Positions 4,335-39,120 are shown, numbered from the stretch's first letter. The stretch: DNA of 64,000 nt from Heptranchias perlo (GCF_035084215.1 NC_090359.1:15872001-15936000), one strand, 5' to 3'. A program made the numbers and translations. The notes: generated from the letters alone by a model not told the origin.

Positions 4335-4868
4335 GGATAAAGTATCACATAATAGACTTGTTTTAAAAATTGAAGCCCATGGGATTAAACGGACAATGGC
4401 AGCGTGGATATAAAATTGGCTCAGGAGCAGAAAACAGAGAGTAGAGGTGAACGGTTGTTTTTCAGACTGGAGGCAAGTACACAGTGGTGTCCCCCAGGGC
4501 TCGGTATTGGGACCACTGCTCTTTTTGATATATATTAATGACCGGGACTTGGGAGTACAGGGTATAATTTCAAAGTTTTCAGATGACACGAAACTCAGAA
4601 ATGTAATAAACAATGTGGAGGACAGTAACAGACTTCAGGAGGACAGAGACAGACTGGTGAAATGGGCAGAAACATGGCAGATGAAATTTACTGCAGAGAA
4701 TTGTGAAGTGATACATTTTGGTAGGAAGATTGAGGAGAGACAATATAAACTAAATGGAACAATTTTAAATGGAGTGGATGAATAGAGAGACCTGGGGGTG
4801 TCGTTACACAAATCTTTGAAGGTGGCAGGACAAGTTGAGAAGGCTGTTAAGTAAGCAAATGGGGCCCT
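4335..4868 (+). mobile_element. CR1 LINE reverse transcriptase fragment, broken at 4868
   Basis: ORF 4447-4785 SGVPQGSVLGPLLFLIYIND...KFSDDTKL; inverted paralog at 56960-57490 continues beyond the break. Confidence 0.85.
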
Positions 4869-4899
4869 GAAAGACATCCAATCGTTTCAAAACAGCGAC

Positions 4900-5790
4900 T
4901 TTTTTTTCTTTTTCTTTTTTTCTTCTTTTTTGTGTGTTTTTAGGCTCCCCTTTTATAAGAAGGGGGGTTTAGGGTTTGTTTATGTGCAAAAACACCCAAA
5001 GAAAACCAAAAACCAGTGTCAAATTAAGATTTTATTATTTTTGTCCAGAATGCACTCCAGCCCCTGCAGTGCCCACCGGTCGGGGAAACCGGGGAGTAAG
5101 TGAACTCCAGCTCCCCAACTCACCCGGCACCGTGCCCAGAGACCGGGAGAAGGGGCTCCCTCCACCCACACCGCCACCAACCGACCTGGCAGGTGAGACG
5201 TTTTTATTAAAACCGTCCACTAGGTCGAGCAGGTCCTGGGAGATGTCGAGCCGCGAGCGGGCGAATTCAGCCTCATCGGCCTCGCCCACCCCGGCAACCA
5301 GGACGCCCGACCCGGTGAACTGTATACTCTCCTCCGTGCCCGGATCCGCGACCCCCCTCATAGGCAGGGTCTCCCCATCCCCCCCCGGGAGGCACGGACT
5401 CGGTCTCCTCCCCCCGAGTGGTGGACGACTCCCGCCGATGGTGTGAAATGGAGGGTGGGGCCCCAGGATCCGCGTCAGGCGCCAACTCCCCTTCCACGGG
5501 GGGCCGTCCCTTTGCAGGGTTCCAGTCCGCTTCCAGGGAGTGGCGCCTTTTTTTCTTTCCGGAGGCTCGCGGAGGGAGGGTCTGCTGGGGCCCCCTCCTC
5601 CGCTCCCTCCTGACCAACGATCTGCCCGGCCTCCGTCGCGACCACGAGATGTAGATCGGCCGCGGTCACGATCGCAGCCTCGGGCTCACTCGATTGTTCA
5701 GCATCCCGGGGACCAGCCTCCAGATGTTTGATTTTCCTCCCTGCCTTTTTTCCGCGAGAGTGCCCTCCTTCCCCCCCGGCGGAGGCCTTG
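4900..5790 (-). mobile_element. Tx1-clade internally deleted element (ORF1 middle fused to ORF2 3' end + 3' UTR + A-rich tail)
   Basis: ORF1-like RLDISQDLLDLV joined at ~5080 to the ORF2 end (...WALQGLECILD); 3' hairpin at ~4943-4967. Confidence 0.85.
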
Positions 5791-6104
5791 TGTTGTTTTT
5801 TTTATTCTTCGAGTGTGTTCATGTGCAGTAAACAATAAACCCAGAATATGTGTCATAATAATTTTTTTCCCTTGTGTTTTCGGCCCTCTTTCATAAGAAG
5901 GGGGGGTTTGGGTGGTTTTTTTTGTCGACTGGAAGTTCAGTCAGAATTAGGCTTTTTTTCCCCCTTTTTCCTTGTGTGTTTTTAGGCCCCCCTTTTATAA
6001 GTAGTGGGGGGGGGGTTCAGGGTGTGTTCATGTGCAGTAAACCAAAAAACCCAAAATAAGTGTCAAATAATAATTTTTTTATTTCGGTCCAGGATGCACT
6101 CCAG
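5791..6104 (-). mobile_element. Short Tx1 3'-end fragments and tag string
   Basis: Three 3' UTR pieces each ending in oligo(A), plus a piece resembling the element 5' region (5929-5944 vs 9842-9858). Confidence 0.75.
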
Positions 6105-6130
6105 TTTCGTCTAGTTTTCTCGTTTAGCCT

Positions 6131-6176
6131 CATCTGGGACAATTGGAGTCAGTTGACTGCAGGTTGTGTATAAAAG
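6131..6176 (+). promoter_or_regulatory. ZP3-like gene 1 core promoter: three E-boxes and TATA box
   Basis: CATCTG 6131, CAATTG 6140, CAGTTG 6150, TATAAAAG 6169-6176, 51 nt upstream of ATG; E-boxes (FIGLA sites) are typical of ZP promoters. Confidence 0.6.
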
Positions 6177-6219
6177 GTGCTGGTTGGTGGGTAAAGTGAT
6201 AGTTGAGTTGTTTGGTATC

Positions 6220-9028
6220 ATGGGGGATTTTGTGGTGAGAGGTTTGTTCCCGGTGCTGGTGTTAGTTGGAGTGGTTTGTTACTCTGACATTTGGCAACAG
6301 TTTAGAGGGCAGAGATTTCCATGGAGAAGAGTAAAACCCACCCCTGTGCCCCAGAGAGTCCCTTCCCCTGTGCCTCCCTTTGGTTCCCATTTCAGTGTGT
6401 CTGAGGGGAGAAGTCTGTCCCCACTGCAGACTGTGATGGTGCAGTGTGGAGAGCAGAACCTGCTGGTGAGGGTAGACATGGATTTATTTAGAACCAGGCA
6501 CCTGATTAAAGCTGCTGACCTGACCTTGGGGACAGCAGGTTGTCGGCCAACTGGGATCCACTCTCAGAACCACACTGTCCTCTTTGACTATGGGCTCCAT
6601 GAATGTGGCAGCAGATTGCAGGTAATGTGATTCCTCAACTCTTGCTCCAATTTCACTGTGTAGATTACTGCCCACTCAGAACTCATTAACATCGGGTGAA
6701 ACTCCAGCCACTGAGGAGATCCCTGAATGAAATCTGTGTATAAATTCTTGCCCACTGTTAAATATCACCCTGTGTGAAACTACTTCTTTATGTTGACATG
6801 TCAATCTTAGCTTTATATTTAAAAAGAACTTCAAATTGTCACTGAGGGACTGCATCTTTCTTAAATGGGTCATTACTACTCTAACTCTGAGATTCAACTC
6901 TATTGGCCTTGAACCTTCACCTACATTTCTCCAAACCACTCTGTTCTTTTGTGCCTCAATTGATTTATCTTTTCTGTGCCTTCCTGTGGATATTCAGGCC
7001 TGTTGCCTCAACTTGTGGTCAATGAATGTTCAGTGTGGAAGTTCCTGTTGAGACTTCTCTTGAAAGATGAAACAAGTGGAATAATAATTGGGATACAATG
7101 TATTAAAGGGGAACTCCACTTTTGGTTATTACACCTGCCAATCCCCTTGATTCCATGGATACAGGTGAGGTTTTAAAGTGATGTTGTGTTTTGTGCTCCA
7201 TATCAGGGGTAACTTGAAGCCCCTTAAGGTGAAAGCTCTATTCTATATGGGAAAGAATGCTCATCAAATCTGGCAGTGCCAATCATTTCAGGGTTTCTGA
7301 CTGCAGGCCTGAAGTCCCCTGTAATACAAGGTGGACTGAGCAGAGTAACAGAGGCTGCTCCAGGCAACTTCAACCAATGGTGGAGCTGCTTCAATCATGT
7401 GTGATTGAGGAGCAGCTAAAACCCCTCAAACTGCTGTTTAACAGGGCAGGAAAATGACCAGAAATAGCTCTTGTCCAATAAGACCAGCTCTTCATTCCTT
7501 AAGCTGATGTCTTTCAGATGGCTGGAGATTTCCTGGTCTATACCACCCACCTGAACCATACCCCAAATGCTCGTGGATCTGTCATTGTGAGAACTAATGG
7601 AGTAGTCATTCCCATTGAGTGCCACTATTTTAGGTAAGAATCTTTACTCTATTGCAAATGAGGTCTACAGGAGGTGCAGTTCTCTGAAGTTGTCCTGAAA
7701 TTACACGCCTGTCCTTCCAGGAAGGGCAATGTGAGCAGTGACCCTATCAAGCCCACCTGGATCCCATTCAGCTCGACCAAGTCTGGAGAAGGGCTTCTGT
7801 CATTCTCACTGTGTCTTATGAATGGTATGTGATGTGTGGATGGGGAGTGCTTTTCTGTCGTCTCCCACTGGGAGTTACACCCACTGTCTCCAACCCTTGT
7901 CCTCTTGTACTTCAGATGACTGGCTTACAGAGCGCACCTCGACTGTCTACTACCTGGGTGACCTCATTCACATTGAGGCCTCTGTTTCGATGACCAACCA
8001 CATGCCCTTGAAACTCTACATTGACAGCTGTGCAGCTACATTGAGCCCAGGCAAGGATTCCACCCCAAGATACAACATCATTGACTACCATGGGTAAGGA
8101 GCTCTCTGCCTATTCCAGCTGGTTATGTCCCAAAGGTTCACTTAATTCACTTTGTCTGTTTTTTTAATCTTTCTTCAGTTGCCTCCTGGACAGCAAAGCT
8201 GAGGACTCCTTTTCAACCTTTGTGTTGCCAAGAGGTGAACGTGAGCTGGACAAACTCCAGTTTGATCTGGATGCATTCCGCTTCTTTGGAGATGACCGTT
8301 CCCTGGTAAGAGGAAGCCAAACATTGGGTTCCCCATGTTGGGAGGAGGTCACGAAATAACAACTTGTATTGAATGTGTTCCTCAGATTTTCATCACCTGT
8401 CACCTGAAAGTTGCTGCAGTGGATCGGAGAGATTCCATGAACAAAGCTTGTCCTTTCCAGAATATGTAAGTTCCCTCTCTCACTCAGGGATGTGTTGTAT
8501 TAAAGGGTGATGGACAACCTGGTTGATAAACTGATTCTCTGGTTTAGCTCGACCCCATTGGAAGAATTGACCAATGACGTGTGCGCCTGTTGTCATCTGG
8601 GCAACTGCAGTGCGAGGAGGGAATTCTGACTTGATTCCAGAGGAAGGAGGGATCTTGTGTATCTGGACCTGGTAGGACATTGATCCTCTCTGTGTTGGTG
8701 GTCACCCTTTACCCTCTCTAACTGGAATGTTTGATATTGCAGGGAGTGATGCTGAATTGAAGTGGGAGGGTGAAGCCTCACTTGGACCCCTGGTCATTCT
8801 GGATCCTGAAGTGTTAGAGCTGGCAACTGAGCCCCTTAATGATGTTGAGCAAAGGATGCAGGAGAGGTCTCCAGGTGGTGAGTTGGCGGACTGCTGGTTT
8901 CCATTTTCCCCTCAATATTTCCTTCACTCACTGACCATTGGTTTCTTCTTCCGTTTTAGGTGTGGAGTCTGAGGTGGTCCTGATCCTGATCCTGGCCCTG
9001 ACTGTGACCGCTGTCTCTGATCTCTGCT
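6220..9028 (+). pseudogene. zp3: Zona pellucida ZP3-like gene copy 1, disrupted. Exons 6220-6621, 7518-7633, 7721-7824, 7916-8093, 8179-8305, 8386-8465, 8548-~8671, 8743-8877, 8960-9028
   Basis: Signal peptide, ZP-N (VQCGE...LHECGS), ZP-C ([27 protein letters not shown]), GT-AG introns; in-frame TGA at 8627-8629, 2-bp indels relative to copy 2 in exons 7 and 9, last exon cut by Tx1 tail. Confidence 0.88.
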
Positions 9029-9920
9029 TTTTTTTCTTAGGCCCCCCTTTTATAATTAGTGGGGGTTCAGGGTGTGTTTGTGCAGAAAACCGAAAACCAA
9101 AAACCAGTGTCAAATTAAGATTTTATTATTTTTGTCCAGGATGCTCTCCAGCCCCTGCAGTGCCCATCGGCGGAGATGGTGTCGCCATATTCCATCGAGC
9201 TACACCCACCCCAAGTCTCAGGCCGACTAATAACAAAGGCCTTGCAAAAGAAAACCTCCTCTCCCCAATTCCCACTGTGTTTGGAGAGGGGCTCCTTTGC
9301 AGGATTTTGTAAAAAAGAATATCCGTGATAGTGGGAGGGATGGTCGAATGGGAAGGAGGGAGTCTGCAGGGGTGGGCTGCTGCAGAAGTGGGTGGAAGAG
9401 GGGCGGGGTTGCACCTTAACAGGTGGATCTTCTGGTGGGCAGGGGGAGGAGATGTCTTCCCCTAGACAGCTGGAGCTGCCCAGTCCTCCACAGATTGAAA
9501 AGTAACTTCACCCAGGCAGCTCCAGCTGTCCTGGGCCAGACACTGGGGGGGAAACCCCCTGTTCTGTATGATCTTTCCTCCCCCTACCTTCAGTTGGTCA
9601 CACTGCACCGCACCGACCTCCTCTTCCTCCCTCTGTTGGATGGTATCGGTCAGCAGCAGTACACCCCTCACAGTGAATGGTGGTCTTCTTCTTCCTCCTT
9701 CCTCCCTGTTGGTTGTTTGTTCCTCTCCTTCTCCTTCTCCTTCTCCTGGATTCAGAGGTATACAAGCGAGGGCTGGTACTTTTCACCCTGCTCTCCACCC
9801 AGAGCTTTAACTCTGACCTCTGCTCTACTCAGCAGTATTAACTGGCAAGTTCAGTCAGGCTGATTCCTGGATGGATTGATGGTCTGTCTGAAAGACATCC
9901 AATCGTATCCCAACAGTGAC
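9028..9920 (-). mobile_element. Bipartite non-autonomous Tx1 derivative (~0.9 kb): 5' UTR + first ORF1 codons fused to last ~60 nt of ORF2 + 3' UTR
   Basis: ATGGCGACACCATCT (MATPS, 9189) joined at ~9170 to TGGGCACTGCAGGGGCTGGAG; 5' UTR homologous to 20540-21250. Confidence 0.85.
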
Positions 9921-10200
9921 TCCTTATTTTTTCTTTTAGAAATTTATGAAATAGGACAATGGAAGTGATTGAACGAAAGGAGCATCCTAAAGACATTGAG
10001 TTGGATCAAAAACAGTTTTTTACTATTTTCACCACTCCGCTCAGCTCAGGAGTGTGGGATGGAAGAGCAGCCGGGGGTTTTATCAGCTACTCTTTTTCTG
10101 ATGAGTCTGAAAGACATCCAATCGCATCAAAGCAGTGACCTTTTTGCTGTTTTTAGCAGCCAGGATTTTTTCGCGACTTTTTTCCATTCCCAACAGCGAC

Positions 10201-13200
10201 ATTTTTTAGGCCCCCCTTTTAAAAGGAGGGGGATTTCGGGTGTCTTTTATGTGCAAAAATCCCAAAGAAAAACCAAAACCAGTTTCAAATTATAATTTTA
10301 TTTTCCTTGTCCAGGATACACTCCAGTCCCTGCGGTGCCCACCGGTCGCGGAAAGCCTCAAGCGTACCGGCAGACACCGCGTGCTCCATCTCCAGGGCCA
10401 CCCGGGCGCGAAGCATTCCGTGGAAGAGAGGCAGACAGTCCGAGCGACCGCCCCCACGGGCCGCAAGCAACCTGGACCTGTGGATGGCCACCTTGGACAG
10501 GCCCACGAGGACGTCCGCCGGCCTGCCCGCCCCCCTCCTCACCAGGCGGCCAAAGATCAGGAGCGTGGGACTGAATTGCAGCCAGAACCTGAGGAGCAGC
10601 CCCTCCAAATAATCACAGGGGCTGCAGTCTCCCACACCCCGTGAACAAATGAAACACGGACTCCTCCAGGCCGCAGAAATTGCAGGCGGCCTGGGAGTCC
10701 GTAAAATGGCGTAACCGCCGGTTGCACGCGACTGCTCCGTGCAACACTCTCCACCCCAGATGCCCGATGTAACACGGGAGGATCCCCAAGTAGAGAGCCC
10801 CCCCACTGGGGACCCCCGCCTCTGCCGGATGGCAGGCCAGGGCGTGTCCGGGCGAGAGACGAGGGCGAGGAAGTGGAGTGTGTGCAGGAGCAGCCCGTAC
10901 AGGAAATCCCTCCGTGCGGAGTGAAAAGGCACGGAGGGAATTTCCCAGACAGCTCAAGTTGTGAGGCGCAGCCTCCCGAGCCAGATTCAGCGGAGCGTCC
11001 AGCCGGTCGGCGTCCTCCGGGCTGACCTTTGGCAGGTCCTCCCACAAAACTCTGCGCGCTTCCTCACTGGACGGATCAGGAGAGAACAGAGCCTCGTAGT
11101 AGGATCGAGCCCGGGCCCTGACTCCCTCCGGGTCCGAGACGAGGGACCCGTCGTCGGCCAGCAGCGTAAGGAGATGCTTTTCCAGCGAAGTCCAGTTGCA
11201 GGTCCCTCAGAGCGTCCTTCTTCTCTTCGTACACCTGCCGCAGGACCGGAGCGGTCCCTCGCCTCGAGGGTACGGTTAAAATCCCCCCCGAGGATAATGC
11301 ACTCGCCGGCGTCGACGGAGTTCAGGTAAGTGGACACTTCTTCAAAGAAGCTCACTTGCTCGGCTCCGGACCAGGGGGCGTACACGTTCACCAGGTGAAG
11401 CGGCACGTCCCCGTGGCGAAGGGCTACGTGGAGCAAGCGGCCCGGCACCGGCTCCTTGACCCCCAAGATCTCCGGCTGAAAAGTCGGGGCCAACAAGATG
11501 GCCGCCCCGCTCGAAACGCTGGCGAGGTGACTCAAGGAGACCCCCCCTCCCCATTCCAGGATCCACGTGGCCTCGTCTCCCGGAACGGTGTGGGTTTCCT
11601 GCAGAAAGCACACCGCATACTTCCCGTCCCGAAGGACCGAGAACTTGTCAAATCTACGGCGGGCGTCTCTGCCGCCGTTGATGTTGAGGCTGGCTATGGT
11701 TATCTCCATGGCAAGAGCACAGCGCAACCTACTTAAACCTAATGCGCGGAGGGAGCGGGGCCGCTAGTCGACCTCCTCTCCCCCCAAGAGCCCGGTGAGG
11801 AGGGATCTGAGCCGGCGCAACCCGACCCCGCCGCCGTCCTCCTCCGCGGCCACGGACGCGACGGCGGCCCGGACCGAGCGGATTAGATGCACCGGCTCCG
11901 ACCAACGGTCGAGGGCCAGCCGGACGCCATCGCGACGATGGGTCCAACCGGACACAAAATCCCGGAGTTCCTCAACGGGGATGAGGGGAGACTCGGTGTC
12001 GGGCACGAGGGTGTCCGCCGCCGCCTCACTGGCGGCGAACTCTAAATCCTCCCCAGTGCCCACCACCGAGTCCCCGACCTCCTCCGGGCCATCGTCGCCC
12101 GCGGCCGACCCACTCCCCGCACAGGGTGCGGAGAACGGGACGGCCGCGCCGGCCGGCCCCGCCTCCGCCACGATCCCACCCCCAGGATCGTCGGCAGAGG
12201 ATTCCTCCCCGGGCTCCACCGGGGGGTCCGGGTCAGAGGGCGGCTCCGGGCGAGGACCCTCCCCAGCCTCCGAGCGGTGGTAAACGGGCACCCGGATATA
12301 ATGGGAAACCGGGGAACCCGGGGAGAACATATATTCCAGCTCTCCAACCTCCCCCGGCTCCGTGCCCAGAGACTGGGAGAAGGGGGTCTCCCCACCCACA
12401 CCGCCACCGACCGACCCGGCCCGTGACATTTTCGTGTTAAAACCCGCCACCAGGTCGAGCAGGTCCTGGGAGAGGTTGAGCCGAGGGCAGACGAATTCGG
12501 CCTCGCCCGCTCCGGCACCCAGGACCCCCGACCCGGTGAACGGGAAGCTCGCGTCGGCGCACGAATCCGCGGCCCCCCCCTTTCGGCAGGGTCTCTCCAT
12601 CCCCCCCCGGGAGGCACGGGCACGATCTCCTCCCCCCAAGAGGTGGATGACCCCCGCTGGCGGTGGGAAATGGAGGGTGGGGTCGCAGGATCCGCTGCCG
12701 GCGCCGACGCCGATTCCCTTTCCGCGGGGGGCCGTCCCTTGGCAGGGTTCCCCTCCGCTTCCAGGGAGCGGCGCCTTTTCTGCCTTCAGGAGGGTGGCGG
12801 AGGGAGGGCGAGCCCCATGTCTGCTGGGGCCCCCCCCTCCGCTCCCTCCTGAATACCCGCCAGCACGGGCCCTGCCGCGACCGCGAGTTGCCGTTTGGCC
12901 GCGGTCACGACCACGGCCTCGGGCTGGCTGGAAGGCTTTCCAACCCGGGGACCAGCCTCCTGATGTTTACTTTTCTTCCGCGCCTTCTTAGGGCGAGGGT
13001 TCCCTCCCTCTCCCCCGGCGGAGGCCTCGTCGGCACCCTCCGCCCGCGCAGTTGACTCTCCCGACGCGGGGGCGGGTTTGGGGGGAGGAGCGGTGGCGGC
13101 GCCAGCCTCGGCCGCCGGAGCTGCTTTGGCGGCCAGGGAGACGGGGCAGTTCTTCCTCAGGTGCCCCACCTCCTTGCAGGCATGGCACCGCCCACCCTCT

Positions 13201-14490
13201 GCCGTCCAGAAGACGTGGTAGGCGGTCCCCTCGTGAATGATACTAAAACCCCCCTCTGTCACCTCCTCCCGCACCAGCTTAACAAACGCCTGGCGCCGGA
13301 AGGAGTACACGTGACGGAGGCTGTTCTCCCTGAGGCCGAGCGTCAGTGGTGTCAACCCTGACCTCACCTCCCCCAGTTGACGTAGATGGGGGAGGAGGAG
13401 CTCGACCGGTAGAAAGGGCGGGACGTTCGATAACACCACCCGCTGCGCGGTGGCCTCCAGCGGGTCCACCGGCAGGAAGGTCCCGCCAACCGTGAGCCCC
13501 TTATTTAGGGCCAGGGACACCGTCCGCTCGGACCTCAGGAAGAACACTGCCCTCCCATACATTTTCGAGGCCGCGACGATGGCCGAGGGGCCGACAACCT
13601 CGGCCATGGCCTTCACGCAGGCCTCGATGGTCATATTGGGGTGAGCATAACATTTCACCCCATGGAGCCTCGTCAAGAGGCGAAATGGCGCCGGCCCAGC
13701 AGGAGCGTCCGAAATCGAAGGCGCGGCCGCCGTGGCGACCCCCGCATACGTCCTGCTGGGACCGGGGACCGGCGAAGATGGCGTCGCCATGGTCTCAGGC
13801 CGGTGGATGGCAAAAAATGGCCTTGTGTTCAATGTAAATAGAAACCGCCTCTCCCCTGTATCCCAGTACAAGTGTGGGAGAGGGGCTCCTTTGTCCGATA
13901 TTTGGTTCTGTCTTTGTCTGAAGCTACTGCTCAAAAGAGCACGAGAGCAAGAGAGGGAGGGATGGCACAGGGAAAACGGAGGGAGTCCGCAGGGGTGGGC
14001 CGCTGGGGAAGTCGGCCAAAGAGGGGCGGGGTGGCACCTTCTTCTGGCTTCTTTCTTCCGGTGGGCGTGGAGGGGAGGAGATGTCTTCTCCTAGACAGCC
14101 GGAGCTGACTCGGCTCAGTCCTCCACAGATGACAAAAGTAAGGAACTTCACCCAGGCAGCTCCAGCTGTCCCGGGCCAGACACTTGGGGGCGGAATCCCC
14201 TGGTCGAAAAAGATCTTCTTACCTCCCCCGACCTTCAGTCGGCCACCCCGATCGCCGTCGACCTCCTCTTCCTGCTGTTTAAGGCTGACAGCAGCAGCAG
14301 CACACCCCTCGCAGCTGCCTGATGTTTTTCGCCTCCTTCTTTCTTTCTCCCTCCTTCCCTCTCGATGGCTCTCCTCTCCTCTGTGCTCTGCACCTGCTTG
14401 CAGCACTTCCGCAAGGCCACACTCGATTGGCCGGCAAGTGGCTCGCCAATACCGACCGGCCCCAGCACTCTCCTCACAGGCTGGGAAGTT
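10201..14490 (-). mobile_element. Tx1-clade element with RT domain deleted (ORF1 13790-~11740 frameshifted; APE N-terminus 11709-11240; ORF2 C-terminus 10985-10285)
   Basis: ORF1 with CCHC knuckle CHACKEVGHLRKNC; APE motifs SLNING, LQETH, NVYAP, GGDFN; C-terminal CNFCGLEESVFHL; no YADD. Confidence 0.92.
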
Positions 14491-14587
14491 GTTTTTTTTT
14501 TAAATTAGGCCCCCCTTTTATAAGAAGGTGGGGTGTGGGGTGTGCTTAACAACTAAAAACCAAACAAACCAAAACGAAGAGTTCAAA

Positions 14588-17500
14588 TCAAAATTTTATT
14601 ATCCTCGTCCAGGATGCACTCCAGCCCCTGCAGTGCCCCCCGGTCACGGAAAGCCTCAAGCGTACCGGCAGACACCGCGGAGCAACCCGCGAAAGAGGCA
14701 GACAGGCCGAGCGACCGCCCCCACGGACCGCGATCATCCTAGACCTGCGGATGGCCACCTTGGACAGGCCCAGGAGCAGGCCCACGAGGACGTCCACCGA
14801 CCTGCCCGCCCCTCTCCTCACCGGGCGGCCAAAGATCAGGAGCGTGGGACTGAAGTGCAGCCAGAACTTGAGGAGCAGCCCCTCCAAATAATGGAACAGG
14901 GGCTGCAGTCTCTCACACCCAGTGTACAAATGAAAAACGGACTCCTCCAGGCCGCAGAAATCACAAGCGGCCTGGGGGTCCGTGAAATGGCGTAACCGCC
15001 GGTTGCACGCGACTGCTCCGTGCGCCACCCTCCACCCCAGATCCCCAAAGTAACACGGGAGGACCCCTGTATAGAGAGCCTCCCACTGGGGACCCCCGTC
15101 TCCGCCGGACGGCAGGATGGCACGCCAGGGCGTGTCCGGGCGAGAGACGAGGGCGAGGAAGTGGATGGTGTGCAGGAGCAGCCCGTACAGGAAATCCCTC
15201 CGCGCGGTGTGAAACGGCACGGAGGGAACTTCCGAGAGACAGCTCAAGTTGTGAGGCGCGGCCCTCTGAGGGAGGTTCCGGGGTTTGGCGCCGAGGAGGA
15301 ATTCAGTCCGAACGGGGGTCAGGTCGGACGGGATGGCTCCGCACGCTTGAGCCGCCTCCACACCCCGAGTGGAGTCAGGGCCGAGCGCCGATTTCAACGC
15401 CTGGATGGCGGCGGCCGCGTCCCCGGCACGCCACGAGGACATGCGAGCGGCGAGCGCCCACGGCTCGAGCCAACCCGACCCACCGCCATCCAGGACGTCC
15501 CTGACTCTGGTCACCCGACCGGCCACAGCCCTCCGCTCCGTCAGCCACGAGTGGCCGAAGCCGACATCGCGGAGGAACGGATTCCCGAGCAGCGGCTCCT
15601 GCAGGACGGCCGCTACCCCCGACGGGTGAGAGCTCCGACCGGAGGCGACCATGTTCCAGACCCTGAGCAGATTCTGGTACAAGACAGGCAGCTCCTGCAA
15701 AGACATGCGGCCGTCCACCAGCGAGACGAACAGGAGCTGCGTGTCGTAGTTCAGGCCGTGCAGCTGGCGGAAAAAGTACGTCGCCAGCGCACGCCATCTA
15801 AGAGGACGCTCAACGTACAGGTATCGCCGCAGCGTCCGAAGGCGGAAAGTTGCCACCTGGGTGCGGACGCACACCAGCCCCTGACCGCCCTCCCTAAGCG
15901 GGAGACTCAGGACTGCGGCAGCGACCCAGTGTATCCCTTTGGCCCAGAAGAAGTCGACGAACTTCCTCTGAATCTTGGCGACAAAATCAGGGGGGGGGGT
16001 CAAAGTGACCAATCTGTACCACAACATGGCGGCCACCAGCTGGTTTATGACCAGCACACGACCCCTGTAGGATAACACTCGGAGCAGTCCTGTCCAGCGC
16101 GCCAGGCGAGCGGCGACTTTGGCCTCCAGCTCTTCCCAGTTCGCCGGCCAGGCTTCCTCGGCAGGGCCGAGGTAGACTCCCAGGTACCGGAGGTGCGTGG
16201 TACTCCAGGCGAAAGCCCTGAGCTCCTCCGGCATGGAGTCCACCCGCCACTGACCCACCAGGAGTCCGGAACATTTCTCCCAGTTGATTCTTGCGGAGGA
16301 CACGGCAGAGTAGACCTCTTGGCACTCGCGCATCCTCCGCAAGTCAAGGGGATCGGTGACCACGAGGAGCACGTCGTCGGCGTAAGCCGAAAGGACGACC
16401 TCCACGCCCGGCTCGCGCAGAGCCAGTCCCGACAACCTCTTTCGCAAGAGGCGCAGGAAAGGCTCCACGCAGACGGTGTATAATTGGCCGGACATGGGGC
16501 ACCCCTGACGCACTCCTCTCCCGAAGCGAAGGGGCGCCGTCAAGGATCCGTGAACCTTAATCAGACACTCCGCGGCGGCGTACAGAAGTCGGATCCGGGC
16601 GACGAAATGCGACCCGAACCCGAAAGCGCGCAGAGTCCCGAATAGATACTCGTGATCCACCCTGTCGAACGCCTTCTCCTGATCCAAGGTAAGGAAGGCG
16701 ACCGACAGACCAGCCCTCTGGGAATGGTGGATCAGGTCCCGGACCAGGTGGATGTTATCGTGGATCTTCCGACCCGGGACCGTGTAGGACTGGTCGGGGT
16801 GGATCATGTGGGCCAGCACGGTGCCCAGGCGAGCAGACATCGCCTTGGCAAAGACCTTATAATCCGTGCTGAGGAGGGAGACCGGGCGCCAGTTTTTAAG
16901 GTTGCGGAGATCCCCCTTCTTAGGCAGCAGGACCACGACCGCCCTGCGCCACGAAAGGGGCATCTCCCCGGTCGCCAGACATTCCCCCAGGACCCGCGCG
17001 TAGTCGCCCCCCAGGACGTCCCAGAAGGCCCTGAGGAACTCCACGGTCAGCCCATCCAGCCCCGGGGACTTGCCCCTGGAGAGCTGGTGGAGGGCGCCGG
17101 TCAGCTCCGCCAAACTGAGCGGAGCGTCCAGACTGTCGGCGTCCTCCGGGCCGACCTTCGGCAGGTCCTCCCACAAAACTCTGCGCGCCTCCTCGCTGGA
17201 CGGATCCGGAGAGAACAGAGCCTCGTAGAAAGATCGAGCCCGGGCCCTGACTCCCTCCGGGTCCGAGACGAGGGACCCGTCGTCGGCCAGCAGCGTAAGG
17301 AGCTGCTTACGAGCCCCCCGCCGCTTTTCCAGCGAGTAGAAGAAGGGAGAGCCGCGGTCCAGGTCCCGCAGGAGCTGGAGCCGCGACCTCACGTACGCTC
17401 CTCGGGACCCGACCAGTTGCAGGTCCCTCAGAGCGTCCTTCCTCTCCTCGTACACCTGCCGCAGGGCCGGATCCTCGGCGGCCTGACCGAGACGGGACTC

Positions 17501-18461
17501 CAGGCCAAGCACCTCCTGCTCCAACCGCCTGACCTCGGACTCCCGCCTCTTAGTCGACCCCCTCGCGTACTCTTGACAGAAGAGGCGGACGTGAGCCTTG
17601 CCCACGTCCCACCAGAGCCTCAAGGAGGAGAAGCCTCCCCGCTTCCCTCTCCAGTCGCTCCAGAACAGACGGAACGAGTCCCGGAACCGCGCGTCCTCCA
17701 GCAGCCGGTTGTTAAAGTGCCAGTACGCGGACCCCGACCGGGCGCGGAGCAGAGCGAGCTCCATCCACACCAGGTGGTGGTCCGAGCACGACACCGGCCG
17801 GATGGAGGCCGACGGGATGCAGGAGGCGTACGCCCGCGAAACGTACAGGCGGTCGATTCTGGAGCTTCCCCCCTCCGGCCCTCACAAAGGTGAACTGGCC
17901 GGAGTCGGGATGGAGATTCCGCCAGACGTCCACCAAGGCGAAGGACCCGACCAGGTCCCTCAACTTCTCCGCCGCCGTTCGGGCACGCGCGGGACCGGAG
18001 CGGTCCCTCGCCTCGAGGGTACGGTTAAAATCCCCCCCCCCGAGGATAATGCACTCGCCGGCGTCGACGGAGTTTAGGTAAGTGGACACTTCTTCAAAGA
18101 AGCTCACTTGCTCGGCTCCGGACCAGGGGGCGTACACGTTCACCAGGTGAAGCGGCACGTCCCCGTGGCGAAGGGCTACGTGGAGCAAGCGGCCCGGCAC
18201 CGGCTCCTTGACCCCCAAGATCTCCGGCTGAAAAGTCGGGGCCAACAAGATGGCCACCCCGCTCGAAACGCTGGCGAGGTGACTCAAGTAGACCCCCCCT
18301 CCCCATTCCAGGATCCACGTGGCCTCGTCTCCCGGAACGGTGTGGGTTTCCTGCAGAAAGCACACCGCATACTTCCCGTCCCGAAGGACCGAGAACTTGT
18401 CAAATCTACGGCGGGCGTCTCTGCCGCCGTTGATGTTGAGGCTGGCTATGGTTATCTCCAT
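14588..18461 (-). CDS. Tx1 ORF2 (APE endonuclease + reverse transcriptase + C-terminal Cys/His domain); frameshift near 17870 and ~30 bp deletion near 14680
   Basis: MEITIASLNING, LQETH, GDFN, SDH; KSPGLDG, NWRPVSLL, DQEKAFD, GVRQGCP, YADD; CDFCGLEESVFHLYTGC. Confidence 0.93.
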
Positions 18462-18490
18462 GGCAAGAGCACAGCGCAACCTACTTAAAC

Positions 18491-20532
18491 CTAATGCGCG
18501 GAGGGAGCGGGGCCGCTAGTCGACCGCCACTCCCTCAAGAGCCCGGTGAGGAGGGATCTGAGCCGGCGCAGCCTGACCCCGCCGCCGCCACCCTCCGCGG
18601 CCACGGACGCGACGGCGGCCAGCACCGAGCGGATTAACTGCGCCGGCTCCGACCAACGGTCGAGGGCCAGCCGGACGCCATCGCGACGACGGCTCCAACC
18701 GGACGCAAAATCCCGGAGTTCCTCAACGGGGATGAGGGGAGACTCGGTGTCGGGCACGAGGGCGTCCACCACCTCACTGGTGGCGAACTCCAAATCCTCC
18801 CCAGTGCCCACCACCGAGTCCCCGTCCTCCTCCGGGTCATCGTCGCCCGCGGCCGACCCACTCCCCGCACAGGGTGCGGAGAACGAGACGGCCGCGCCGG
18901 CCGGCCCCGCCTCCGCCACGATCCCACCCCCAGGATCGTCAGCAGAGGAGTCCTCCCCGGGCTCCACCGGGGGGTCCGGGTCAGAGGGTGGCTCCGGGCG
19001 AGGACCCTCCCCAGCCTCCGAGCGGTGAAAAACCGGCACCCGGATATAAGGGGAACCCGGGGAAACCGGGGAGAACGTGTACTTAAGTTCTCCCACCTCC
19101 CCCGGCTCCGAGCCCAGAGACTGAGAGGAGGGGGTCCCCCCACCCACGTCGCCACCGACCGACCCGGCCCGTGAGATATTTTGATTAAAACCCACCACCA
19201 GGTCGAGCAGGTCCTGGGAGAGGTCGAGCCGGGGGCAGACGAATTTGGCCGCAACGGCCTCGCCCACCCCGGCACCCAGGACGCCCGACCCGGTGAACAG
19301 GGTGGTATCTGGTAAAAGCGGATCCGCGACCCCCCCTATCGGCGGGGTCTCTCCATCCCCCCCGGGAGGCACGGGCACGATCCCCTCCCCCCGAGAGGTA
19401 GATGACCCCCGCCGCTGTTCGGATGTCACGGGCGGGGCCGCAGGATCCGCGACCGGCACCGACTCCCCTTCCACGGGGGGCCGTCCCTTAGCAGGGAGCC
19501 CGTTCGCTTCCGGGGAGTGGCGCCTCTTTTTCTTCCAGGAGGGTCGCGGAGGGAGGGGGGACTCCATGTCTGCTGGGACCCCCACCTCCGCTCCCTCCTG
19601 ATCACCCGCCAGCCCGGGCTCTGTCGCGACCGCGAGATGTTGACTGGCCGCGGTCACGACCTCGGGCTGACTGAGATCTTCTCTGTCCCGGGGACCAGCC
19701 TCTAAATTCTTCCTCTTTCTCCGCACTTTCTTCTGGCGAGGGTTCCCCTCCTCCCCCCTGGCGGAGGCCTCGACGCCAACCTCCACCCGCGCAGTTGACT
19801 CTCCCGACGCGGGGGCGGGGTTGGGGGAGGAGCGGTGGCGGCGCCAGCCCCGGCCGCCGTAGCTGTTTTGGCGGCCTGAGAGGCGGGGCAGTTCCTCTTC
19901 AGGTGCCCCACCTCCTTACAGGCATGGCACCGCCCACCCTCTGCCGTCCAAAAGACGCGGTAAGGGGTCCCCTCATGGAGGGCGTTAAAGCCCCCCTCCG
20001 TAACCTCCTCCCGTGCCAGCTTGACGAATGCCTGGCGACGGAAGGAGTAAACATGCCGGAGGCTGTTCTCCCTGAGTCCGAGCGGCAGCGGCGTTACCCC
20101 CGACCTCACCTCCCCCAGTTGACGTAGGTGGGGGAGGAGGAGCTCGTCCGACAGGAAAGGCGGGACGTTGGATAAAATGACCCGCTGCGCGGTGGCCTCC
20201 AGCGGGTCCACCGGCAGGAAGGTCCCGCCAACCGTGAGCCCCTTACTAAGGGCCAGGGACACCGCCCGCTCGGACCTCAGGAAGAACACCGCCCTCCCGT
20301 ACATTTTCGAGGCCGCGACGATGGCCGAGGGGCCGACAACCTCGGCCATGGCCTTTACGCAGGCCTCAATGGTCATGTTGGGGTGGGCGTAGCTCTTCAC
20401 CCCATGCTTCCTCGTAATGAGGCGGAAAGGCGCCGGCCCAGCAGGAGCGGCACGAACTGTAGGAGCGGCCCCCGAGGTAACCGCCGCATACGTCCTGCTG
20501 GGTCCCGGCACCGGCGAAGATGATGAAGCCAT
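18491..20532 (-). CDS. Tx1 ORF1 (RRM-like N-terminus, CCHC zinc knuckle, long low-complexity acidic tail); one frameshift near 19800
   Basis: ORFs 19702-20532 and 18491-19786; AASKMYGRAVFFL, LSNVPPF, SFRRQ, CHACKEVGHLKRNC. Confidence 0.9.
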
Positions 20533-21260
20533 GACCTAAAGAGCCACACCCACCCCAAGTCTCGGGCCTACTGATGAATTTAGGCCTTTTTAAAAGAAGC
20601 CCTGAGGAAACCTCTCTCCCCGAATCCCAGAGCTTGGTTGGGAGAGGGGCCCCTTTGCTGGTTTTATTTTCCCCCAGAATATCCGGGAGAGCAAGAGAAG
20701 GTGGGAGGGATTAATGGTGGAATGGGAAGGAGGGAGTCTGCAGGGGTGGGCTGCTGCAGAAGTGGGTGGAAGAGGGGCGGGGTTGCACCTTAAAAGGTGG
20801 ATCTTCTTCTGCCTGTCTTCCGGTGGGCAGGGGGAGGAGATGTCTTCCCCGAGACAGCTGGAGCTGCCTAGGCTCAGTCCTCCAAAGATTGAAAAAAGTA
20901 ACTTCACCCAGGCAGCTCCAGCTGTCCTGGGCCAGACACTTGGGGGAACCCCCTGTCCTCTAAGGTCTTCTTCCTCCCCCTACCTTCAGCCGACGCACCT
21001 CACTGCACCGACCTCCTCTTCCTCCCTCTGTTCGGTGTCGCAAACCAGCAGCAGCAGCAGCACAACCCCTCCCGGCTGCTGTTTGGTCGTATTCTTCTTC
21101 ACCCTCCCTCCTTGTTGATGGTGGTTTCTCCTTCTCCTTCTCCTTGACTCAGAGGGACCCGGGCAAGGGCCTGCTCTCTCTGCTCTCTCTGCTCTCCACT
21201 CAGTGGCAGTTCAGCCACAAACACCTCCAATGCCGAGCTGGTGTGTCTCAAAGACAACCC

Positions 21261-21511
21261 AACAGAGATGTGATCAGATTTCGTTTGAGGAAAGTCAAAG
21301 AAACCAACAGCAATGGCATCACACAATAATCATCCAATCCCACCTGTATTCCAAAGCTCTGATTGGTTCTGGGAATCACACCCCACCTTCTGTCCTTTGT
21401 TTATTGGTGCCTGGATTCATGGACGATTCCTGAGTGGTTGTCAGGGATTGTCAATCATCATTGGTGATCTCATACCCTGTGTAAATGCAGGCTGTCCCAG
21501 TAGTATAAATA
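21261..21511 (+). promoter_or_regulatory. Ferritin 1 promoter: multiple CCAAT/ATTGG boxes and TATAAATA (21504-21511)
   Basis: Four CCAAT/ATTGG motifs in ~130 bp; closely homologous to 26160-26464. Confidence 0.65.
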
Positions 21512-26545: not shown

Positions 26546-28768
<2,223 letters not shown>

Positions 28769-30761: not shown

Positions 30762-31010
30762 AGTGCCCGGGTGGCCCCGGAGAGGGAGCATGTGGTGTCC
30801 ACCGTTACGCTTGATGCCTTCCGCGACCGCTGGGCACCGCAGGGTATAGACTGTCTTTCAGACATCAATAATAGAATCCTGATTTAATTGGGAAAGTATC
30901 CTGTTGTTTTTGGTGGCACTTGATGCTTATTTTGGTATCTTTTCAGTTTGATTGGACCATCCAATATTAGTGGTGCCCTGAGAGGGCCACTTGTGATGGT
31001 TTATGTTTGG
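30762..31010 (+). mobile_element. 3' fragment of a different Tx1 subfamily
   Basis: Encodes ARVAPEREHVVSTVTLDAFRDRWAPQGIDC...ILI-stop, like the ORF2 end, with a different 3' UTR. Confidence 0.75.
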
Positions 31011-31090
31011 TGACCCTGGGGCAACCCAGAGTCTCCCTTATTGGTCCATCAAAGAAAGGTCGATTATGGTCAAGAATATGGTCACTATCA

Positions 31091-31308
31091 GATTTTTTTT
31101 TCTTTGGAGTGTGGGATGGAAGAGCAGCCATGGTTTTTTTTCTTTTCCTTTTTTTGTGTTTTAGGCCCCCCTTTTATAAGAAGGGGAGGGGGGGTTTGGT
31201 TGTGTTTATGTGCAGTAAATCAATAAACCCAAAATAAGTGTCAAATTATAATTTTATTACATCGATCCAGGATGCACTCCAGTCCCTGCGGTGCCCACCG
31301 GTTACGGA
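31091..31308 (-). mobile_element. 5'-truncated Tx1 3' end with tag-containing tail, flanked by CAGATTT
   Basis: ORF2 end + hairpin (31163-31190); cagattt at 31089 and 31311. Confidence 0.8.
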
Positions 31309-31310
31309 AA

Positions 31311-31605: not shown

Positions 31606-34158
<2,553 letters not shown>

Positions 34159-36749: not shown

Positions 36750-38595
36750 ATTTTTTGTTTTCTTTTTTTTTCACTTTCAGATTTATTTTTTTCCTTTTTT
36801 ATTTTTTTTTTATTTTGTTAGGCCCCCCTTTTATAAGAAGGGGTGTGTGGGGTGTGCTTAAATACTAAAACCAAACAAACCAAAACCAAGTGTTCAAATT
36901 AAAATTTTATTCTCTTCGTCCAGGATACACTCCAGCCCCTGCGGTGCCCACCGGTCGTGGAAAGCCTCGAGCGGACCGGCAGACACCGCGTGCTCCATCT
37001 CCAGGGCCACCCGGGCGCTGAGCATTCCGCGGAAGAGAGGCAGACAGGCCGAGCGACCGCCCCCACGGACCACGATCATCCTAGACCTGTGGATGGCCAC
37101 CTTGGACAGGCCCAGGAGCAGGCCCACGAGAACGTCCACCAACCTGCCCGCTCCCCTCCTCACCGGGCGGCCAAAGATCAGGAGCGTGGGACTGAAATGC
37201 AGCCAGAACATGAGGAGCAGCCCCTTCAAATAATCAAACAGGGGCTGCAGTCTCGCACACCCAGTGTACAGATGGAACACGGACTCCTCCAGGCCGCAGA
37301 AATCACAAGCGGCCTGGGTGTACGTGAAATGGCGTAACCGCTGGTTGCAGGCGACTGCTCCGTGCAACACTCTCCACCCCAGATCCCCGATGGAACACGG
37401 GAGGATCCCTGAGTAGAGAGTCCCCCACTGGGAATCCCCGTCTCCGCCGGACGGCAGGATGGTACGCCAGGGCGTGTCCGGCCGAGAGACGAGGGCGAGG
37501 AAGTGGATGGTGTGCAGGAGCAGCCCGTACAGGAAATCCCTCCGCGCGGTGTGAAACGGCACGTAGGGAATTTCCGAGAGACGACTCAAGTTGTGAGGCG
37601 CGGCCCCCCGAGGGAGGTTCCGGGGTTTGGCGCCGAGGAGGAACTCCGTCCGAACGGGGGTCAGGTCGGACGGGATGGCTCCGCACGCCTGAGCCGCCTC
37701 CACATCCCGAGTGGAGTCAGGGCCGAGCGCCGATTTCAACGCCCGGATGGCGATGGCCGCGTCCCCGGCACGCCACGAGGACATCCGTGCGGCGAGCGCC
37801 CACGGCTCCAACCAACCCGACCCACCGCCATCCAGGACGTCCCTGACTCTGGTCACCCGACCGGCCACGGCCCTCCGCACCGACAGCCGCGAGTGGCCGA
37901 AGCCGATATCGCGGAGGAACGGATTCCCGAGCAGCGGCTCCTGCAGGACGGCCGCGACCCCTGACGGGCGAGAGCTCCGACCGGAGGCGACCATGTTCCA
38001 GACCCTGAGCAGATCCTGGTAAAAGACAGGCAGCTCCTGCAAAGACGTGCGGCCGCCCACCAGCGAGACGAACAGGAGCTGCGTGTCGTAGTTCAGGCCG
38101 TGCAGCTGGCGGAAAAAATACGTCGCCAGCGCACGCCATCTAAGAGGACGCTCAACGTACAGGTATCGCCGCAGCGTCCGAAGGTGGAAAGTTGCCACCT
38201 GGGTGCGGACGCACACCAGCCCCTGACCGCCCTCCCTAAGCGGGAGACTCAGGACCGCGGCAGCGACCCAGTGTATCCCTCTGGCCCAGAAGAAGTCGAC
38301 GAACTTCCTCTGAATCTTGGCGACAAACTCGGGGGGTGGGGTCAAAGTGACCAATCTGTACCACAACATGGCTGCCACCAGCTGGTTTATGACCAGCACT
38401 CGACCCCTGTAGGATAACACTCAGAGCAGTCCTGTCCAGCGCGCCAGGCGAGCGGCGACCTTGGCCTCCAGCTCTTCCCAGTTCGCCGGCCAGGCTTCCT
38501 CGGCAGGGCCGAGGTAGACTCCCAGGTACCGGAGGTGCGTGGTACTCCAGGCGAAAGGCCTGAGCTCCTCCGGCAGGGAGTCCACCCGCCACTGA
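36750..38595 (-). mobile_element. 5'-truncated Tx1 element (3' third of ORF2 + 3' UTR + A-rich tail)
   Basis: ORF 36894-38420 closely matches the C-terminal part of ORF 14588-17794 and has an intact end (...LECILDEENKILI). Confidence 0.93.
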
Positions 38596-38617
38596 CTTAC
38601 CAGAAAACTGGACGAAA

Positions 38618-38941
38618 CTGGAGTGCATCCTGGATATCCACAGGTCCAGGATGCTCGCGGTCCGTGGGGGCGGGTGCTCGGCCTGTCTGCCTCTCTTTCG
38701 CGGGTTGCTCCGCGCCCGGGTGGCCCTGGAGATGGAGCACGCGGTGTCTGCCGGTACGCTTGAGGCTTTCCGCGACCGGTGGGCACTGCAGGGGCTGGAG
38801 TGCATCCTGGACGAGGAAAATAAAATTTTAATTTGATGCCTGGTTTTGTTTTATTTGATTTTTAGTACTTAAGCACACCCGACACCCCCCCCCCTTCTTA
38901 TAAAAGGGGGGCCTAAAAAACACAAAAAAAAGAAAAAAAAA
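38618..38941 (+). mobile_element. Tx1 3' end in opposite orientation, tail abutting ZP3-like gene 2
   Basis: ORF 38651-38836 = ORF2 C-terminus; hairpin 38886-38913; A-rich tail. Confidence 0.9.
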
Positions 38942-38943
38942 GT

Positions 38944-39102
38944 GTGCTGGTTGGTGGGTAAAGTGATAAAAGAAAAAGAAACAAAGGAAAAAAAAAGAGA
39001 AAAAAAAAAGGTGCTGGTTGGTGGGTAAAGTGATAAAAGAAAAAGAAAAAAAGGAAAAAAAAAGAGAAAAAAAGAAGGTGCTGGTTGGTGGGTAAAGTGA
39101 TA
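38944..39102 (+). repeat. Three copies of 25-bp ZP3 leader GTGCTGGTTGGTGGGTAAAGTGATA separated by ~42-nt A-rich spacers (67-bp period)
   Basis: Copies at 38944, 39011, 39078; single copy at 6177-6201 in ZP3 gene 1. Confidence 0.9.
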
Positions 39103-39120
39103 GTTGAGTTATTTGGTATC

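What the first reader, a model, noticed from the sequence alone, without database searches (positions are those of the whole stretch)
9860..10210. Oligo(A)-punctuated tag strings between Tx1 copies that record earlier flanks
Seen: read on the minus strand, the element 3' end is followed by GTCGCTGTTGGGAATGG-A6-GTCGCG-A6-TCCTGGCTGCT-A5-CAGC-A5-GGTCACTGC...GATTGGATGTCTTTCAGAC-...-A-rich-GTCACTGTTGGGATACGATTGGATGTCTTTCAGAC. The ~33-nt motif recurs at 4867-4899, 9886-9920 and 10105-10139, and partly at 10184-10200 and 21245-21265. Another tag string lies at 5791-5955. Known: Drosophila HeT-A arrays accumulate short oligo(A)-ended tags at junctions, and L1 3' transduction also gives multi-tail ends. 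Inference: an ordered record of serial TPRT events at one preferred target, which may be the element's own 5' terminus.
Basis: partly seen in the sequence, partly recalled or inferred. Interest (0 to 1): 0.8.

Follow-up and report, generated by a model that had tools for sequence, protein, structure and literature searches.

The report
Retrotransposon tail logs earlier landing sites
Behind a jumping gene in what is probably a shark or ray genome sits a chain of nine short DNA snippets split by runs of A, most likely left-overs of places it landed before (often the front end of its own relatives), a familiar kind of footprint repeated unusually many times.

Summary
The string is real. Nine tags (4-78 nt) split by A4-6 runs lie between the 3' end of a Tx1L-lineage copy (E2) and the head of a third copy (E3). 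Three tags are cut-off versions of that head (motif A). Two match a second motif B, whose 24-mer recurs exactly at 31106-31129. There B lies inside an insertion with an 8-nt target duplication and is foreign to the local flank, so tags travel with the element. At two other ends (36819, 38915) the tag copies the local flank. Best reading (0.5): tags start as target-site-duplication copies trapped between two A-runs and are then carried along in read-through RNA. Rivals are plain short 3' transduction and template jumping onto short tailed RNAs. No tag order is shared between loci in the window. The 21245-21265 match is weak and partly host DNA. The 5791-5955 string is mostly the element's own 3' UTR. 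The parts are known from L1, SINEU and R1; a nine-tag chain was not found in ten literature searches.

The parts
14506..21261 (-). E1: near full-length Tx1L-lineage non-LTR retrotransposon (5' UTR, ORF1 with zinc knuckle, ORF2 EN-RT), frameshifted; starts about 18 nt inside head motif A
   Evidence: Pfam zf-CCHC, Exo_endo_phos, RVT_1; RT 64% to Xenopus Tx1L, tree; head alignment
10207..14491 (-). E2: second copy, internally deleted in ORF2, with a different first ~130 nt; its 3' end carries the tag string
   Evidence: self-BLAST and mapping on E1; alignment
10184..10201 (-). tag A1: first 13 nt of head A (12 of 13 match) plus 4 further nt
10172..10177 (-). tag A2: first 5 nt of head A
   Evidence: 5 of 6 in register; 9 of 643 post-A-run positions score as well, self hits included
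10155..10165 (-). tag B1: short version of motif B
   Evidence: 9 of 11 in register with 31133; 2 of 643
10146..10149 (-). tag C, 4 nt, unassigned
   Evidence: no register match
10098..10140 (-). tag A3: 43-nt head A variant, identical neither to the local head (4 differences in 35) nor to the 4899 copy
10082..10092 (-). tag D, possibly a diverged head A start (weak)
   Evidence: 8 of 11; 8 of 643
10030..10077 (-). tag B2: 48-nt version of motif B
   Evidence: 24-mer exact at 31106-31129
10022..10025 (-). 4-nt tag, unassigned
9938..10015 (-). tag E, 78 nt, start weakly A-like, no source in the window
   Evidence: 1 of 200 and 11 of 200 shuffles reach the score against two A copies; no window hit above null
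9038..9920 (-). E3: non-autonomous copy, head A4 (9886-9920) plus 5' UTR joined directly to the last ~140 nt
4867..4899 (-). independent head A copy directly behind the 42-nt tail of another Tx1 copy (4941-5790), cut off by a junction to unrelated DNA
31093..31310 (-). 5'-truncated copy + tail + tag B (31106-31133) + second tail, bounded by an 8-nt target duplication upstream of ferritin gene 3: the clearest carried tag
36753..38603 (-). copy whose 10-nt tag between two tails repeats the local flank
38636..39074 (+). copy with two 25-nt tags that repeat the local flank, split by two near-identical 42-nt A-rich linkers
   Evidence: empty paralogous site at 6174
5791..6105 (-). second string: 3' end piece, tail, 29-nt piece resembling E3 5' UTR +63 to +80, then two own-3'-UTR pieces in swapped order

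Best explanation
Stutter, then carry. Step 1 (structure shown, mechanism inferred): the element nicks at an A-run/flank junction, and an event that copies only the A-tail leaves target copy, A-run, target. A full copy then inserts at the regenerated site, either later or by re-priming in the same event, giving element, tail, tag, tail, flank. The tag ends where the second strand was cut, so it has target-duplication length and needs no poly(A) signal. Step 2 (shown once, at 31093-31310): later transcripts run through the first short A-run and are primed in the last one, so the tag moves to the next site. Step 3 (inferred): repeated rounds build a chain with the oldest tag next to the element. 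Step 4 (inferred): in head-to-tail arrays the tail/head junction is itself such a site, so the head of a sister element (A) is the commonest tag; B marks a second recurrent site of unknown origin.
For: The tag equals the local flank at 2 of 5 tagged ends (36819: 10 of 10; 38915: 25 nt, second copy exact, first differs at its start), with the empty site seen at 6174. Tag B is foreign to its local flank yet enclosed by an 8-nt duplication and recurs exactly in the string. A and B tags start in register right after an A-run and stop at different lengths. Six of nine string tags are 4-18 nt, within the 4-25 bp duplication range given in PMC4862182. 7 of 9 string tags have none of 13 recalled poly(A)-signal hexamers in the 45 nt up to their end. 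Tagging is frequent: 5 of 9 3' ends. E1 and E2 look young (99% identical over the EN region, CpG obs/exp 0.82-0.84 against 0.14-0.19 in flanking DNA), so the short A-runs are unlikely to be age erosion. Precedent: tandem SINEU-3 copies sandwich a TSD (PMC4494074).
Against: No shared order of two or more tags between any loci in the window. No upstream duplicate at the array junctions (longest shared words 5, 5 and 8 nt, the last partly host), although the array flanks belong to different loci, which may have removed it. Three tags (43, 48, 78 nt) are longer than usual duplications. The linkers at the two local-tag sites are long (about 20 and 42 nt) whereas the string's inner runs are 4-6 nt. 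3 of the 4 tags outside the string do have a signal-like hexamer upstream, as plain transduction predicts. Nine rounds need nine active generations. Four of nine tags have no assigned source.
Confidence: 0.5

Rival explanations
1. Plain serial short 3' transduction: cleavage and polyadenylation fall a few bases past a short genomic tail, adding one flank tag per generation.
For: Known for L1: transductions under 50 bp after a short poly(A) tract (PMC4862182 introduction). It explains uniformly short inner A-runs and the long tags. 3 of 4 tags outside the string have a signal-like hexamer 8-35 nt upstream. Fits 31093-31310 directly.
Against: 7 of 9 string tags lack a listed signal. Tags identical to the local flank (36819, 38915) would need re-insertion at the same or a paralogous site.
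Confidence: 0.22
2. Template jumping: after finishing E3's 5' end the reverse transcriptase jumped onto short oligoadenylated RNAs (aborted heads, fragments) and then onto E2 and E1 RNA, in one or a few events. The string is then a concatemer, not a history of sites.
For: Tx1-mobilised SINEU-2 gains 3'-truncated heads of other subfamilies at its 5' end (PMC4494074 section 17). No upstream duplication at array junctions. Swapped 3'-UTR pieces at 5791-5925 and microhomology joins in E3 and the 4941 copy show template switching in this family. A4-6 is the typical length of decay-linked oligoadenylation (recalled).
Against: Cannot make tags identical to the local flank. The SINEU extensions are not described with oligo(A) in the section read. 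Needs about ten jumps in a row.
Confidence: 0.19
3. Purely local pile-up: every tag is a leftover duplication of tail-only insertions at this one junction, and nothing was carried from elsewhere.
For: A1 matches the local head at 12 of 13; the two local-tag sites show the process; A3 agrees with the local head at positions 4 and 14.
Against: B tags have no local source and recur 21 kb away; A3 differs from the local head at 4 of 35 positions, two of them shared with the 4899 copy.
Confidence: 0.06
4. Separate question, compatible with any mechanism above: A is a host repeat (for example a DNA transposon, the usual Tx1 target) that the E1/E3 family captured as a 5' extension, not the element's own terminus.
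For: Tx1L targets Tx1D, and crocodilian Tx1 families target DNA transposons and pick up 5' extensions from them (PMC4494074). E2 lacks A. A-like starts at tag E and at 30852 continue differently (both weak).
Against: A runs straight into the 5' UTR in E3 and, from about +18, in E1; A3 follows E3 for five more bases beyond the core; no tail-free A copy above chance in the window; no Rfam family.
Confidence: 0.35
5. Assembly or library artefact.
For: Reads could not be examined; the region is repeat-rich and rearranged.
Against: Tags recur as distinct variants at separate loci with exact junctions and a target duplication; no match among plasmid records.
Confidence: 0.03

Closest known systems
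L1 short and serial 3' transduction (PMC4862182, passages seen)
   Same: element, tail, short foreign sequence, second tail, inside a target duplication (31093-31310)
   Different: nine tags in a row, mostly without a poly(A) signal, with recurrent rather than unique flanks
Tandem SINEU-3 / Tx1-Mar insertions sandwiching a TSD, and SINEU-2 5' extensions (PMC4494074, passages and section 17 seen)
   Same: Tx1 machinery, repeated insertion at one site, cut-off heads of different variants stacked before a head
   Different: heads here are not snRNA-derived (no Rfam hit), are separated by oligo(A) and are mixed with non-head tags; no Mariner target identified
Xenopus Tx1L (PMC1950540 passages seen; UniRef YTX2 hit P0008)
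   Same: same RT clade (100/100), 64% RT and 47% EN identity
   Different: Tx1L inserts at one site in Tx1D; here at least five unrelated junction classes are used
R1 and other double-insertion tandems (PMC5932611, passages seen)
   Same: head-to-tail arrays from repeated insertion, with target copies at junctions
   Different: no single host duplication at the junctions; E1/E2 joins without one, E2/E3 holds a 287-nt string
Drosophila HeT-A tags (bioRxiv 10.1101/782904, one passage seen; oligo(A) detail recalled)
   Same: short tags accumulate at junctions of a head-to-tail retrotransposon array
   Different: HeT-A tags derive from the upstream element and ride at the RNA 5' end; here they are heads or flanks behind a tail, the locus is not telomeric and the element has an endonuclease

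Membership tests
Tx1 clade, Tx1L lineage | ORF2 with APE endonuclease, RT and C-terminal zinc region; ORF1 with zinc knuckle | tested here: met
   Exo_endo_phos and RVT_1 above cut-off; zf-CCHC and zf-RVT just below
Tx1 clade, Tx1L lineage | RT groups with Xenopus Tx1L | tested here: met
   100/100 clade with Tx1L, sturgeon and turtles; sister to a stingray sequence 99/95; 25 named hits of 120 listed were used, midpoint root, no non-Tx1 outgroup
Tx1 clade, Tx1L lineage | one strict target sequence | tested here: not met
   A, B, ferritin-upstream, 6174/39075 and 9027/41923 sites differ. The complement of Tx1L's published 4-nt target element lies at 1 of 3 site classes with a readable upstream side
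Tx1 clade, Tx1L lineage | 11-residue endonuclease hairpin loop with Tx1L-type tip | tested here: inconclusive
   appears shorter in E1 but lies at a frameshift and is deleted in E2
3' transduction (L1 type) | foreign sequence between two tails, inside one target duplication | tested here: met
   31093-31310; the duplication is only 8 nt
3' transduction (L1 type) | source locus found downstream of a donor element | not testable with these tools
   only the 64-kb window is available; no eukaryotic genome collection
3' transduction (L1 type) | poly(A) signal before the new tail | tested here: not met
   absent for 7 of 9 string tags; present for 3 of 4 other tags
Double-insertion tandem (R1, SINEU-3 type) | junction holds a copy of the local target duplication | tested here: inconclusive
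   met at 36819 and 38915; not met at E1/E2 or the array flanks
HeT-A tags | tags derive from the upstream element's 3' end | tested here: not met
   none of the nine string tags had the element's 3' UTR among its top window matches or register matches; only the 5791-5925 pieces are 3'-UTR-derived
HeT-A tags | transcription starts in the upstream element's 3' UTR | not testable with these tools
   needs 5' RACE or CAGE
Keno, Dewa, Mutsu (U2, tRNA-spacer, 5S targets; Dewa and Mutsu targets recalled) | insertion in or beside the RNA gene | tested here: not met
   no Rfam family in 4000-43000 above gathering score; the nearest tRNA is at 52416

The most novel reading that the evidence does not exclude
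A Tx1L-lineage element that homes to the head of its own relatives and routinely keeps each landing site as an oligo(A)-bounded tag, so that every copy carries a readable, ordered log of up to nine ancestral insertions: a natural lineage recorder that would give donor-to-daughter trees and target choice directly from one genome.
Probability: 0.3. Interest if true: 0.75.

Novelty: new variant of a known kind. Interest (0 to 1): 0.5.

Why it matters
If tags are inherited in order, the strings give the insertion history of single retrotransposon lineages without population data, and they test how target-primed reverse transcription starts, aborts and restarts. They would also show how a relative of the strictly site-specific Tx1L shifted to tail/head junctions and built head-to-tail arrays, a route to retrotransposon satellites. 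If template jumping is the cause, it would be an in vivo ten-step concatemer from a LINE reverse transcriptase. The same elements sit at paralogous sites about 300 bp upstream of ferritin genes and at both ends of a rearranged ferritin block.

Tried and rejected
Rfam and ARAGORN: no RNA family in or near the string; the three E-value hits in 4000-43000 lie far below gathering scores. Plasmid search for vector-like origin: no match. Tag B as a piece of ORF2: 25 of 30 nt match the E1 ORF2 end (score 35, null max 28), but most differences change the protein at a motif that close homologs keep; treated as probably chance, not excluded. Tag B2 as the E2 head: 22 of 200 shuffles reach the score, rejected. 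Tag E as ferritin upstream DNA: 13 of 200, rejected. Sources in the window for tags C, D, the 4-mer and E: none above null. One target duplication around the whole array: none. A sequence preference (CTG within 11 nt after the A-run in 5 of 9 site classes, background 0.16, p 0.0075; tag E left out; pattern picked after looking) is kept only as a lead. The site at 36752 as an exact paralog of the ferritin-upstream site: homology lies about 110 nt out of register, so only genes 1 and 3 are counted as filled. The bacterial promoter scan is not applicable. Folding of the head and of 3' hairpins was not significant (z -0.15 to -1.98). The exon 1 reference was off by one base and was repeated. Szak et al. 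2003 and a HeT-A review were not held, so the number of serial transductions known for L1 and the HeT-A oligo(A) details rest on recall. Paper supplements were not opened; the flank figures of PMC4494074 may bear on novelty.

Full report
Observation. Between the element end at 10207 and position 9921 lie nine tags of 18, 6, 11, 4, 43, 11, 48, 4 and 78 nt, separated by runs of four to six A, with a longer A-rich run at the end. Eleven A-runs in 287 nt are reached by 3 of 2512 comparison windows, all over another tail of the same family. An 18-mer of the recurring motif (A) is exact at three places, and 0 of 100 shuffles gave three matches. The copy claimed at 21245-21265 is weak: its score lies inside the whole-window null, and its upstream bases are host DNA seen in an empty paralogous site.

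The element. ORF2 has endonuclease and RT domains. The RT is 64% identical to Xenopus Tx1L. In a tree of 26 rows (E1 plus 25 named hits of the 120 listed) it is sister to a stingray sequence inside a 100/100 clade with Tx1L; the host is therefore probably a cartilaginous fish (inference). Three copies lie head to tail: E1 (21261-14506), E2 (14491-10207), the string, and E3 (9920-9038), which is a 5' UTR joined directly to the last 140 nt. E1 and E2 are 99% identical over the endonuclease region and keep their CpGs, so they look young unless gene conversion homogenised them. A probe for 3' ends gave 15 rows. Nine are true ends; six were dropped (two opposite-strand readings of the same palindromic ends, four matches with 6-7 mismatches and no tail).

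What the tags are. Motif A is the first 35 nt of E3 and runs on into its 5' UTR; E1 begins about 18 nt into it. Tags A1, A2 and A3 start in the same register right after an A-run and stop after 13, 5 and about 43 nt; D may be a fourth. A separate copy at 4941 also has A directly behind its tail. A3 is a third variant: it differs from the local head at 4 of 35 positions, shares positions 10-11 with the 4899 copy, and shares positions 4 and 14 with the local head. Tags B1 and B2 belong to a second motif, whose 24-mer is exact at 31106-31129. Four tags (C, the 4-mer, E, and D unless it is A) have no source in the window. The string at 5791-5955 is different: one piece resembles E3's 5' UTR at +63 to +80, and two pieces are the element's own 3' UTR in swapped order.

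Three informative loci. At 31093-31310 a truncated copy, its tail, 28 nt of B and a second tail sit between two copies of an 8-nt target sequence; the paralogous site before ferritin gene 2 is empty. B is unrelated to that flank, so it arrived with the element. At 36819 the 10-nt tag, and at 38915 two 25-nt tags, repeat the flank that follows the last tail, and the empty site for the latter is at 6174. These are target duplications trapped between A-runs. In all, 5 of 9 ends carry at least one tag.

Mechanism. I favour a two-step process (0.5). A tail-only event leaves target, A-run, target; a full copy then inserts at the regenerated site, later or by re-priming within the same event. The jump of the RT onto the target's 3' end that the second route needs is the standard model for finishing full-length insertions (PMC2912911, passages). 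Read-through RNA primed in the last A-run then carries the tag on. This joins the local-tag loci and the carried-tag locus in one scheme and explains why 7 of 9 string tags have no listed poly(A) signal (hexamer list recalled). Against it: no two loci share two tags in order, three tags are long, the inner A-runs are shorter than the linkers at the local-tag loci, and no upstream duplicate is found at the array junctions. Plain short 3' transduction (0.22) is documented for L1 (PMC4862182, passages) and fits the hexamers found before 3 of 4 tags outside the string. Template jumping onto short tailed RNAs (0.19) has a Tx1 precedent in SINEU-2 5' extensions (PMC4494074 section 17) but cannot give local-flank tags. 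Purely local pile-up (0.06) fails on B, and artefact (0.03) is unlikely but reads were not seen. Whether A is the element's own terminus or a captured host repeat is a separate open question (about 0.65 to 0.35).

Targets. There is no single target. Junctions fall at A, B, a site about 300 bp upstream of ferritin genes 1 and 3, and two sites at the ends of a 2.9-kb direct repeat. The empty or 5' sites read pyrimidine followed by a purine run, as for L1 (L1 consensus in PMC1950540). The complement of Tx1L's published 4-nt target element is present at the ferritin site only, and the endonuclease loop cannot be read cleanly.

Comparison and novelty. Each ingredient is known: short L1 transductions, tandem insertions sandwiching a duplication (SINEU-3; R1, PMC5932611 passages) and stacked heads. 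HeT-A tags come from the upstream element, the mirror image of this case. Ten full-text searches listed no paper describing oligo(A)-punctuated multi-tag strings in Tx1 elements. The library lacks most subscription papers, Repbase reports were not searchable, two wanted papers were not held and no supplements were read. Papers seen as passages only: PMC4494074 (plus section 17), PMC5537684, PMC3747384, PMC5932611, bioRxiv 10.1101/782904, PMC13141329, PMC4862182, PMC1950540, PMC1919474, PMC2912911; other titles only as search listings. No eukaryotic genome or metagenome collection was available, so sources of A and B outside the window stayed unchecked.

Verdict. An ordered log at one target is not shown. 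New variant of a known kind, interest 0.5; 0.75 if the ordered log is confirmed genome-wide (probability 0.3).

Noticed in passing
21587-24319, 26546-28768, 31606-34158 (+): Three tandem four-exon ferritin genes, with no Rfam iron-responsive element hit. Tx1 junctions lie at the paralogous upstream site of genes 1 and 3, while gene 2 is empty.
   Followed up: partly
6174-9032 and 39075-41923: A 2.9-kb direct repeat (94-95%) flanks the array plus ferritin block, and both inner junctions are bridged by Tx1 copies, suggesting a retrotransposon-bridged rearrangement.
   Followed up: partly
36802-38938: Two copies head to head with tails outward, bridged by a 36-nt inverted copy of the 5' junction of the copy ending at 5983.
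   Followed up: partly
9400-9620 (-), also 20845-20950 and 14090-14195: Conserved long hairpin in the 5' UTR (z -5.0); 0 of 31 pairs compensatory in three copies; no Rfam match.
   Followed up: partly
5088, 9165, 31310, 6104 (-): Four copies start or rejoin the 3' piece at E1 positions 6610, 6624, 6610 and 6638, at the 3' arm of a predicted hairpin that is not significant on its own: possible RT stop hot spot.
   Followed up: partly
30747-31074 (+): An insertion bounded by a 17-nt direct repeat holds an 80-90-nt Tx1 piece followed by a weak A-like match (score 27, within the window null) and about 200 nt with no match in the window.
   Followed up: partly
11239-14356 vs 17988-21113: E1 and E2 are mosaics: 99% identical over the endonuclease region, 80-96% over ORF1 and the 5' UTR, and with unrelated first ~130 nt.
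   Followed up: partly
tails at 4941, 5879, 5983, 31162, 38915: The tails share an early A-C-A-C interruption, so part of the tail is inherited rather than newly added.
   Followed up: no
52415-63673: Five tRNA genes called by ARAGORN (Asp, Lys, Glu, Phe, His), four also by Rfam; no Tx1 copy among them.
   Followed up: no
55420-56543: 54-bp tandem repeat, 20.8 copies, 92% matches, with long open frames.
   Followed up: no
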